A stretch of 64,000 nt of DNA from positions 558,001-622,000 of the forward strand of contig OX597842.1 of assembly GCA_951406725.2 (NCBI GenBank). The letters run 5' to 3'. Positions 58,470 through 64,000 of the stretch are shown here, in pieces. The stretch comes from Octopus vulgaris. Its lineage: Eukaryota. The notes under the pieces were generated by a model. It did not search any database. It was not told the origin of the DNA and saw only the letters and a list, made by a program, of their open reading frames with translations. A program made the position numbers and the translations under genes. The stretch's first letter is position 1. Every line of letters starts with the position of its first letter.

Positions 58470-58660
58470 TTTCTATATTTAAGAGATGAGGAATTAAGTA
58501 CATTATTTACATTATTTACATTTGATGGATATTTGTCCTCATCTTGTTTGTTGTTAACACATTTCGGCTGATATACCCTCCAGCCTTCATCAGGTGTCTT
58601 GGGGAAATTTCAAACCTGGGTTCTCGTTCCTAAGTTATTTTTTCGATATTATTATTATTA
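58470..58660 (-). mobile_element. HHR unit family H1; core at 58556-58598 with the cleavage triplet deleted
   Basis: GACAC CUGAUGA A GGCUG GAGGGUAUAU CAGCC GAAAU GUGUU (3-nt deletion compared with the 18366 copy). Confidence 0.8.
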
Positions 58661-62735: not shown

Positions 62736-62895
62736 TGAAGGGCACAGCTGTGGTTATGTGGTAAGGAGCTTGCTTCCCAACCACATGGTTCCGGATTTAT
62801 TCCCACTGGGTGACTCCTTGGACAATTGTTGTCTACTGTAGCTTCAGGCCAACCAAACCCTTGTGTGTGGATCTGGTAGACAGAAACTCAAAAAG

Positions 62896-62905
<10 letters not shown>
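62560..62905 (+). mobile_element. Two SINE A 5' halves
   Basis: Family match; each ends in (TA)n. Confidence 0.8.
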
Positions 62906-62941
<36 letters not shown>

Positions 62942-62944
<3 letters not shown>

Positions 62945-63238
62945 CGTGACGCATATTTGCCATTTGAATATGGCTTACCCATAAGGGTGGATGCTACTGT
63001 AGTTTGTAGCCCCAGGAAGATATCTCCTCCAGCTGGTTATAGACACACTATCTGTGTCCTCTCAGTATTTGTGAAGGGGAGTCATCCTCCCCGTCTTCAA
63101 CACATGATACACACGTACCCGAGTTTCAAGGTGTTTACCTTTCATCAGCGTGTGACAATCATGGTTGTCGATGAGAAGTCAAATCCCTTCACAAATACAT
63201 ACTTTTTCCAGTGTCGATTGACACTGATATTGAAAAAG

Positions 63239-63240
<2 letters not shown>
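62942..63240 (-). mobile_element. Structured ~300-nt HHR element in (TA)n (family H4, retrozyme-like)
   Basis: Complex-sequence island between pure (TA)n runs; multiple inverted repeats; intact hammerhead. Confidence 0.8.
63097..63167 (-). ncRNA. Intact type I hammerhead ribozyme with extended stem I
   Basis: CAAC CAUGAU UGU CACACG CUGAUGA AAGGU AAAC ACCUU GAAAC UCGG GUA CGUGUG U AUCAUG U GUUG. Confidence 0.9.

Positions 63241-64000
<760 letters not shown>

What the first reader, a model, noticed from the sequence alone, without database searches (positions are those of the whole stretch)
62942..63240. Intact hammerhead ribozyme in a highly structured 300-nt element embedded in (TA)n: candidate cephalopod retrozyme / circular RNA unit
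Seen: the minus strand of 63110-63154 reads CACACG-CUGAUGA-AAGGU(AAAC)ACCUU-GAAAC(UCGG)GUA-CGUGUG, giving a 6-bp stem I, perfect core, 5-bp stem II, 2-bp stem III and a GUA cleavage triplet. Stem I continues past an internal loop (UGU/U) with CAUGAU/AUCAUG and CAAC/GUUG. A perfect 14-bp inverted repeat (63065-63078 / 63185-63198) encloses the ribozyme. A terminal hairpin (63200-63240) and several short hairpins (62959-62974, 62977-62988, 62993-63010, 63042-63058) fill the rest. There is no credible ORF. Known: type I HHRs with a bulged stem I contacting loop II and a very short stem III are typical of Schistosoma Sm-alpha, Penelope-like element pLTRs and animal non-LTR retrozymes of roughly 170-400 nt that form circRNAs. 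Inference: a young, non-coding, (TA)n-targeting self-cleaving retroelement. I cannot say whether it has been described.
Basis: partly seen in the sequence, partly recalled or inferred. Interest (0 to 1): 0.9.

Follow-up and report, generated by a model that had tools for sequence, protein, structure and literature searches.

The report
Hammerhead retrozyme family with Penelope-type ends
This is one clipped copy of a 352-base, protein-free repeat, present over a thousand times in a large animal genome (likely an octopus), that carries a predicted self-cutting hammerhead RNA and lands in TA microsatellites with the same two-ended footprint as the genome's Penelope-like jumping genes, which likely copy it.

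Summary
The hammerhead and the fold are real (fold z = -7). The 299-nt stretch is not the unit. It is a 5'-clipped copy of a 352-353-nt tandem unit, lacking a 53-nt linker. The family has at least five subfamilies and over 1,300 exact-motif copies. Hammerhead stems covary between subfamilies, and the commonest subfamily matches Rfam Hammerhead_1; the window copy does not. Copies have scattered 5' ends and two fixed 3' ends 42-45 nt apart, followed by (TA)n. In 44 of 46 head-to-head inverted insertions one arm uses each end. That is the Penelope 'tail' footprint, and Neptune-type Penelope elements in this genome show it too. I found no sequence homology to their terminal repeats; one chimeric locus hints at a partner. 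No 5' end lay at the ribozyme cut (0 of 100). Cleavage, expression and circles are untested. Verdict: a new member of the animal non-LTR retrozymes (non-autonomous Penelope-like elements), with unusually clear genomic evidence on how they are copied. The scan holds no look-alike sequence, but noted elements of this general kind in other genomes.

The parts
62943..63239 (-). Clipped copy (unit positions about 1-299 of 352) of the retrozyme-type repeat, subfamily A; 3' end at the inner of the two fixed 3' ends (E1)
63110..63154 (-). Type I hammerhead motif: 6-bp stem I, core, 5-bp stem II closed by A-U, 2-bp stem III inside an 8-nt self-complementary stretch (two G-U), GUA triplet; predicted cut 63116/63115
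   Evidence: sequence; no Rfam hit for this copy, Rfam RF00163 hit for sister subfamily E
63098..63167 (-). Extended stem I beyond the 3x1 internal loop
   Evidence: helix 1, 99% of cells paired
63065..63078 (.). Arm of the perfect 14-bp inverted repeat enclosing the ribozyme domain
63185..63198 (.). Other arm of the 14-bp inverted repeat
63200..63239 (-). Hairpin at the copy's 5' end; internal in full units
62959..63058 (-). Cluster of short hairpins kept across subfamilies A-D
62902..62942 (.). (TA)n target, the tail of a SINE-like repeat (62736-62900; 14 hits in the window)
   Evidence: the SINE label is recalled, not tested
63240..64000 (.). (TA)n run with scattered C, 1,146 nt in all, continuing past the window

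Best explanation
The stretch is a 5'-clipped copy of a protein-free, hammerhead-bearing 352-nt tandem repeat that is likely copied into (TA)n by the reverse transcriptase and endonuclease of a Neptune-type Penelope-like element acting in trans. Inferred cycle: a tandem array is transcribed; the helper nicks both strands of a TA run; one nicked end starts cDNA at site E1 and the other at site E2, 42-45 nt further 3'; both copy towards the 5' end of the RNA, stop at scattered points and are joined head to head, or only one arm survives, as in the window. The usual template is inferred to be uncut multimeric RNA. The hammerhead is predicted to cut only as a dimer, through its palindromic stem III, and likely yields unit-length RNA or circles that now and then found new uniform arrays. 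Shown: copies, unit, ends, target, covariation. Inferred: helper, priming, template. Untested: cleavage, expression, circles.
For: Copy number: 1,323 exact matches to one 20-nt motif, 392 and 439 to two hammerhead motifs, reversed controls 0. Polarity: in subfamily A 56 of 61 arms end at E1 or E2 while 5' ends scatter; TA follows 49 of these 56 ends against 10% background. Inverted loci with both ends canonical: 44 of 46 pair E1 with E2 (25 of 27, 11 of 11, 8 of 8; binomial p 1.5e-11). Published Penelope footprint: inverted 5'-truncated copy and a 30-40-bp tail at one end only (PMC8557442 section 6; PMC3846280 passages); in vitro the tail lies between two internal RT start sites and both strands are cut and extended (PMC11167929 parts 1-2). 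This genome has RT + GIY-YIG elements with open 781-aa frames and a Cys linker of the Neptune type that end in (TA)n with the same two ends. L236 joins a retrozyme arm to Penelope ORF pieces with no TA or host DNA between. Uncut multimer template: 0 of 100 listed copies start at the cut; in L274 both arms repeat the same order of a private variant from the 3' end. Ribozyme under selection: 10 of 36 pairs change on both sides, 6 of them in the 11 core pairs of stems I and II; stem III is self-complementary in subfamilies A, C, D and E.
Against: No sequence homology between the unit and any Penelope terminal repeat in 44 GIY-YIG loci (A and D units tested) or 25 loci of the chimera's family, so the helper is not identified, unlike the Xenopus cases of Li et al. 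The chimera is a single locus, its Penelope arm ends about 24 nt short of that family's usual end, and nested insertion with deletion would explain it too. The window copy has A10.1-U11.1 in place of the conserved G-C and no Rfam hit; subfamily C has a C-A mismatch there (13 of 22 rows unpaired at that pair). Covariation counts reflect only a few subfamily-level events, and 28 of 500 shuffles reach the number of covarying pairs. Only 5 of 82 sampled loci held two hammerheads in tandem (that sample missed subfamily E). Li et al. found cleavage in only 1 of 9 predicted retrozyme dimers. Uniform arrays (22 of 23 loci) also fit a monomer circle as the main template.
Confidence: 0.62

Rival explanations
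1. Same family and same Penelope-type helper, but the main template is a unit-length circular RNA made by hammerhead cleavage and ligation and read by rolling reverse transcription.
For: Arrays of up to 5 units are uniform within a locus: 22 of 23 multi-unit loci agree at lineage-marking sites, and private variants fill 5 of 5 (L263), 3 of 3 (L192) and 2 of 2 (L273) units. A circle also gives no 5' ends at the cut. Cut-to-cut monomers fold as circles at z -8.6 and -8.4. Coral, mussel and axolotl retrozymes accumulate as circles (PMC7229834).
Against: L274 (4 of 6 units, same order in both arms) and L191 (2 of 3) need a template with unlike units, or later gene conversion. Hammerhead mutants did not affect insertion for the anole Penelope in vitro.
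Confidence: 0.22
2. The copies are the terminal repeat (pLTR) debris of an autonomous Penelope-like element that I did not sample.
For: The footprint is identical to that of autonomous elements; only 150 of 6,136 GIY-YIG candidates were scored; Li et al. trace retrozymes to pLTRs.
Against: Arrays of 2-5 units run unit to unit with no ORF. In 85 loci tested against one Penelope ORF and 104 further loci tested against two (28 of these belong to other repeats) the few ORF hits that I inspected were separate insertions or the one chimera. The ribozyme is of the canonical long type, whereas the sampled Penelope ends are AT-rich with minimal variant hammerheads.
Confidence: 0.09
3. A satellite or SINE-like repeat spread by a LINE or by unequal crossing-over, with a now idle hammerhead.
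For: The window copy's ribozyme is non-canonical at 10.1-11.1; LINEs and SINEs are the commonest repeats of Octopus vulgaris (PMC13282606).
Against: No poly(A) or tRNA head (one search found no tRNA gene in the window); two fixed 3' ends in strict E1+E2 pairing are not a LINE or satellite trait (own knowledge); the youngest, commonest subfamily has the most canonical ribozyme.
Confidence: 0.07

Closest known systems
Animal non-LTR retrozymes (Cervera and de la Pena 2020, PMC7229834; read: parts 2-3 of 6 and passages; supplement not readable)
   Same: Non-coding 170-400-nt unit, type I hammerhead with 1-2-bp stem III, GC under 50% (43%), strong self-pairing, tandem copies, coexisting Penelope elements; the mussel unit is 350-390 nt.
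   Different: No cephalopod example in the main text (0 hits for octopus or cephalopod). Here copies are dispersed short arrays, often head-to-head inverted, with two fixed 3' ends in (TA)n; 'inverted' and 'microsatellite' do not occur in that text. Circles are not shown here.
Retrozymes as non-autonomous Penelope derivatives (Li, Clavereau, Pollet 2026, 10.64898/2026.07.22.740005; read: parts 1-3 of 5; supplements closed)
   Same: Proposes mobilisation by Penelope-like elements; most families have at most seven units.
   Different: Their evidence is co-occurrence and pLTR homology in 35 species without molluscs. Here pLTR homology was not found, but the insertion footprint is shown.
[quoted passage not shown] 2021, PMC8557442, section 6 and passages; Arkhipova et al. 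2013, PMC3846280, passages; Frangieh et al. 2024, PMC11167929, parts 1-2 of 4)
   Same: 5' truncation, partial tandems, inverted 5' copy, tail at one end, microsatellite targets, hammerhead in the repeated unit.
   Different: No ORF; tail 42-45 nt against 30-40; canonical long hammerhead in a heavily folded unit rather than a minimal one.
Rfam RF00163 Hammerhead_1
   Same: Subfamily E copy matches the full model, 32.2 bits, E 9e-7.
   Different: Below the gathering score of 34; the window's subfamily A copy gives no match.

Membership tests
Type I hammerhead ribozyme | Core CUGANGA...GAAA...UH with three stems, stem I open | tested here: met
   RF00163 hit for subfamily E, none for the window copy
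Type I hammerhead ribozyme | Conserved G10.1-C11.1 pair | tested here: not met
   A-U in the window copy; G-C in subfamilies E and D; C-A or U-U in C and B
Type I hammerhead ribozyme | Stems kept by compensatory changes | tested here: met
   38 cells with double changes against 14 in shuffles, and against at most 10 in slid controls; few independent events
Type I hammerhead ribozyme | Self-cleavage at the predicted site | not testable with these tools
   needs in vitro assay
Animal non-LTR retrozyme | Non-coding 170-400-nt unit in tandem copies with a hammerhead in each unit | tested here: met
   352-359-nt units, arrays to 5 units; the window copy itself is under one unit
Animal non-LTR retrozyme | Short palindromic stem III allowing a dimer ribozyme | tested here: met
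   self-duplex -8.9 (A), -10.7 (E) kcal/mol; cofold of two window copies forms the cross helix; 69 of 100 listed copies have the perfect palindrome, 18 the G-U form (hand count)
Animal non-LTR retrozyme | Accumulates as circular RNA | tested here: inconclusive
   only assembled contigs of runs guessed to be RNA were available
Animal non-LTR retrozyme | No LTR, PBS or PPT; target duplications when present are long | tested here: inconclusive
   no LTR structure seen; duplications cannot be read in (TA)n
Non-autonomous Penelope-like element | 5' truncation, partial tandems, inverted 5' copy, tail at one end | tested here: met
   36 of 82 loci are inverted pairs; 44 of 46 E1+E2
Non-autonomous Penelope-like element | 3' or pLTR sequence shared with an autonomous family | tested here: not met
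   no homology in 44 + 25 loci; sampling incomplete, 150 of 6,136 candidates scored
Non-autonomous Penelope-like element | Autonomous RT + GIY-YIG element present in the genome | tested here: met

The most novel reading that the evidence does not exclude
A long-lived radiation of cephalopod ribozyme RNAs (subfamilies A-E down to 70% identity, plus a distant sister F) that has no sequence left in common with any Penelope element and parasitises a Neptune reverse transcriptase by shape alone. One helper dimer starts two cDNAs at two fixed sites of one RNA, and hammerhead-made circles re-found uniform arrays. This would give a compact, protein-free substrate that defines what a Penelope protein recognises and whether it can roll round a circle.
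Probability: 0.35. Interest if true: 0.7.

Novelty: new member of a known kind. Interest (0 to 1): 0.48.

Why it matters
Who copies animal retrozymes is still argued from co-occurrence and pLTR similarity (PMC7229834 calls Penelope elements 'a strong candidate'; the 2026 preprint says the mechanism remains to be elucidated). Here a retrozyme family carries the Penelope-specific two-start footprint in 44 of 46 informative loci. The strict one-arm-each pairing is a number that any model of Penelope integration must explain. Young uniform arrays, a canonical ribozyme variant and open-frame helper candidates in one genome make both questions, helper and circle, directly testable. I found no cephalopod retrozyme in print (no 'ribozyme' in the O. 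vulgaris repeat paper or its supplement); Rfam hammerhead hits are listed for giant squid, and repeat databases could not be checked.

Tried and rejected
Rfam on the window copy: no hammerhead. Expression: no RNA holder on record; 19 of 24 listed runs hold part of the stretch, none recorded as RNA. Four were laid: all are assembled contigs; contigs in two runs guessed to be RNA cross the predicted cut, which fits uncut RNA, ligated RNA or DNA alike, so no conclusion is drawn. Apparent partners rejected: L117 (retrozyme copy about 560 nt past the Penelope end, host repeats between), L103/L186 (39 nt of TA between), L145/L237 (TA and host sequence between); L247/L252 were placed beyond the Penelope 3' end from hit coordinates only. 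A shared 8-mer between the retrozyme tail and the L236 Penelope end is private to that copy. One search's end mapping was spoiled by TA in my query and was redone. 5'-end pile-up at the cut: 4 of 33 partial hits began near it, but the direct test gave 0 of 100 (that pattern misses truncated copies whose first letter is C). No solved structure matched the Penelope ORF. Rows dropped as duplicates before counts: L096, L111, L112 (same loci), L158, L190; L205 (end at 335) was classed 'other'. Sets two and three (L188-L207, L263-L278) were hand-picked for several nearby hits, not for end type.

Full report
Observation. The hammerhead at 63110-63154 (-), the 14-bp inverted repeat and the five hairpins are as described. 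The minus strand folds far better than shuffles (z -7.0), as does the plus strand (z -6.2). No real ORF overlaps it. Rfam does not call this copy a hammerhead, and a loose core pattern is not above chance in the window.

Host. The genome has 2.80 Gb in 227 contigs. An octopus is my inference from size, about 30 large contigs and the repeat landscape; it was not tested.

A family, not a locus. The DNA search gave 2,499 candidates; all 40 scored were near full length, the 39 others at 96-98% identity. Neighbouring hits are separated by a constant 53-nt linker, so the unit is 352-353 nt. The window copy covers unit positions about 1-299, lacks the linker, sits in the TA tail of a SINE-like repeat and is followed by 1,146 nt of TA. 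Exact-motif counts are 392, 1,323 and 439, with reversed controls at 0. Subfamilies: A (window); B and C (stem II closed by U-U or C-A); E, the commonest and youngest (87% to A); D (70% to A over 181 nt, U3 core variant, 1,463 candidates); and a distant sister F (355-nt unit, 2,917 candidates, little alignable sequence).

Ribozyme. Over 22 copies of A-D, 89.6% of cells pair, and 10 of 36 pairs change on both sides, including three pairs in stem II and three in stem I. Slid controls give at most 4 such pairs, but 28 of 500 shuffles reach 10, and the changes stem from few events. Subfamily E has G10.1-C11.1, a GUC triplet and a perfect 8-nt palindrome over stem III, and matches RF00163 (32.2 bits, E 9e-7, gathering 34). 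The window copy has A-U, GUA and a palindrome with two G-U pairs. Stem III is not predicted in the monomer; two copies cofold through the palindrome. This is the dimer design described for animal type I hammerheads (PMC4209133 passages). Cleavage itself is untested, and 8 of 9 predicted retrozyme dimers failed to cut in one study.

Footprint. In 82 loci taken from the hammerhead-pattern list, subfamily A has 56 of 61 arms ending at E1 (about 299) or E2 (about 341-345), with TA after 49 of 56 against 10% background; 5' ends scatter. The older subfamily C is looser (31 of 50 arms). Thirty-six of 82 loci are head-to-head inverted pairs. Where both arms have a canonical end, one uses E1 and the other E2 in 25 of 27, 11 of 11 and 8 of 8 loci in three sets, 44 of 46 in all. 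An inverted 5' copy with a tail on one end only is the published Penelope layout. For an anole element the tail lies between two internal reverse-transcription starts, both DNA strands are cut and extended, and the protein is predicted to be a dimer. I infer one cDNA from each nicked strand, one per start site.

Helper. The genome holds several RT + GIY-YIG families, one with many open 781-aa frames and a Neptune-type Cys linker. They end in (TA)n with two ends: L123 has an inverted arm without and a main arm with a 38-nt tail; another family has a 42-nt tail in 9 of 25 loci, none in 14, other ends in 2 (hand count). No terminal repeat among them aligns with the unit. One locus, L236, joins 556 nt of subfamily E, a 31-nt reversed patch and two pieces of that second family's ORF without TA or host DNA. 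This fits one event using both RNAs, or a nested insertion with deletion. The helper's class is likely; its family is open.

Template. None of 100 listed copies begins at the cut. In 72 E units from 27 loci, units differ by 0.67% within and 1.54% between loci; 22 of 23 multi-unit loci are uniform at lineage-marking sites, and private variants fill whole arrays in three loci. That points to a single-unit bottleneck, such as a circle, a template jump or gene conversion. Against a monomer circle as the only template, L274 shows a private variant in 4 of 6 units in the same order in both arms, and L191 in 2 of 3. I therefore favour uncut multimers as the usual template, with occasional re-founding from unit-length RNA. 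Cut-to-cut monomers of A and E fold as circles at z -8.6 and -8.4; single older C and D copies give -2.0 and -3.8. Read data were uninformative.

Comparison. It works like an animal non-LTR retrozyme moved by a Penelope-like element. It meets the sequence and layout criteria of retrozymes; circles are not shown. It meets the Penelope footprint but fails the shared-terminus test within my sample, so I do not file it under a named Penelope family. No cephalopod retrozyme turned up in eight literature searches; the unread supplements of PMC7229834 and the 2026 preprint, and repeat databases, may hold it. Earlier scan notes show no look-alike but similar kinds elsewhere.

Verdict. Real, a new member of a known kind, interest 0.48: ordinary in kind, but with a clean, countable footprint that bears on an open mechanistic question.

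Noticed in passing
window 58555-58593 (-), 18365-18405 (-), broken copy near 18590-18632 (-): A second, unrelated hammerhead-bearing repeat (1,942 candidates). Copies are often preceded by a tRNA-like head with an (AAT)n spacer (the head label is by eye), which suggests a SINE-like element carrying a minimal hammerhead.
   Followed up: partly
L123, L124, L121, L119, L116, L118; subfamilies D (L063-L085) and F (L209-L227): Many hammerheads here replace the C3-G8 core pair by U3-A8 or U3-G8, in autonomous Neptune-type ends and in retrozyme subfamilies D and F alike; F shares the stem III palindrome of the 781-aa family.
   Followed up: partly
L209-L227: Family F: 355-nt unit with the same tandem and inverted layout and hairpin order, but about 60 nt between its two 3' ends (by eye).
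   Followed up: partly
L236:2126-3900 (G000:C1, about 71.845 Mb): Retrozyme-Penelope chimera without a TA spacer; possible trace of one insertion using two RNAs.
   Followed up: partly
L188/L190, L157/L158, L247/L252: Pairs of loci with identical element ends 7 kb to 1 Mb apart: segmental duplicates or assembly duplicates.
   Followed up: no
window 63240-64000: TA run of 1,146 nt beside the element, far longer than most targets seen; later expansion or an assembly effect.
   Followed up: no
window 8744-9280 (+), 25367-26369 (+), 10353-10790 (-): ORF fragments that look like an R2/CRE-type retroelement and a mariner transposase (by eye, labels recalled, not searched).
   Followed up: no
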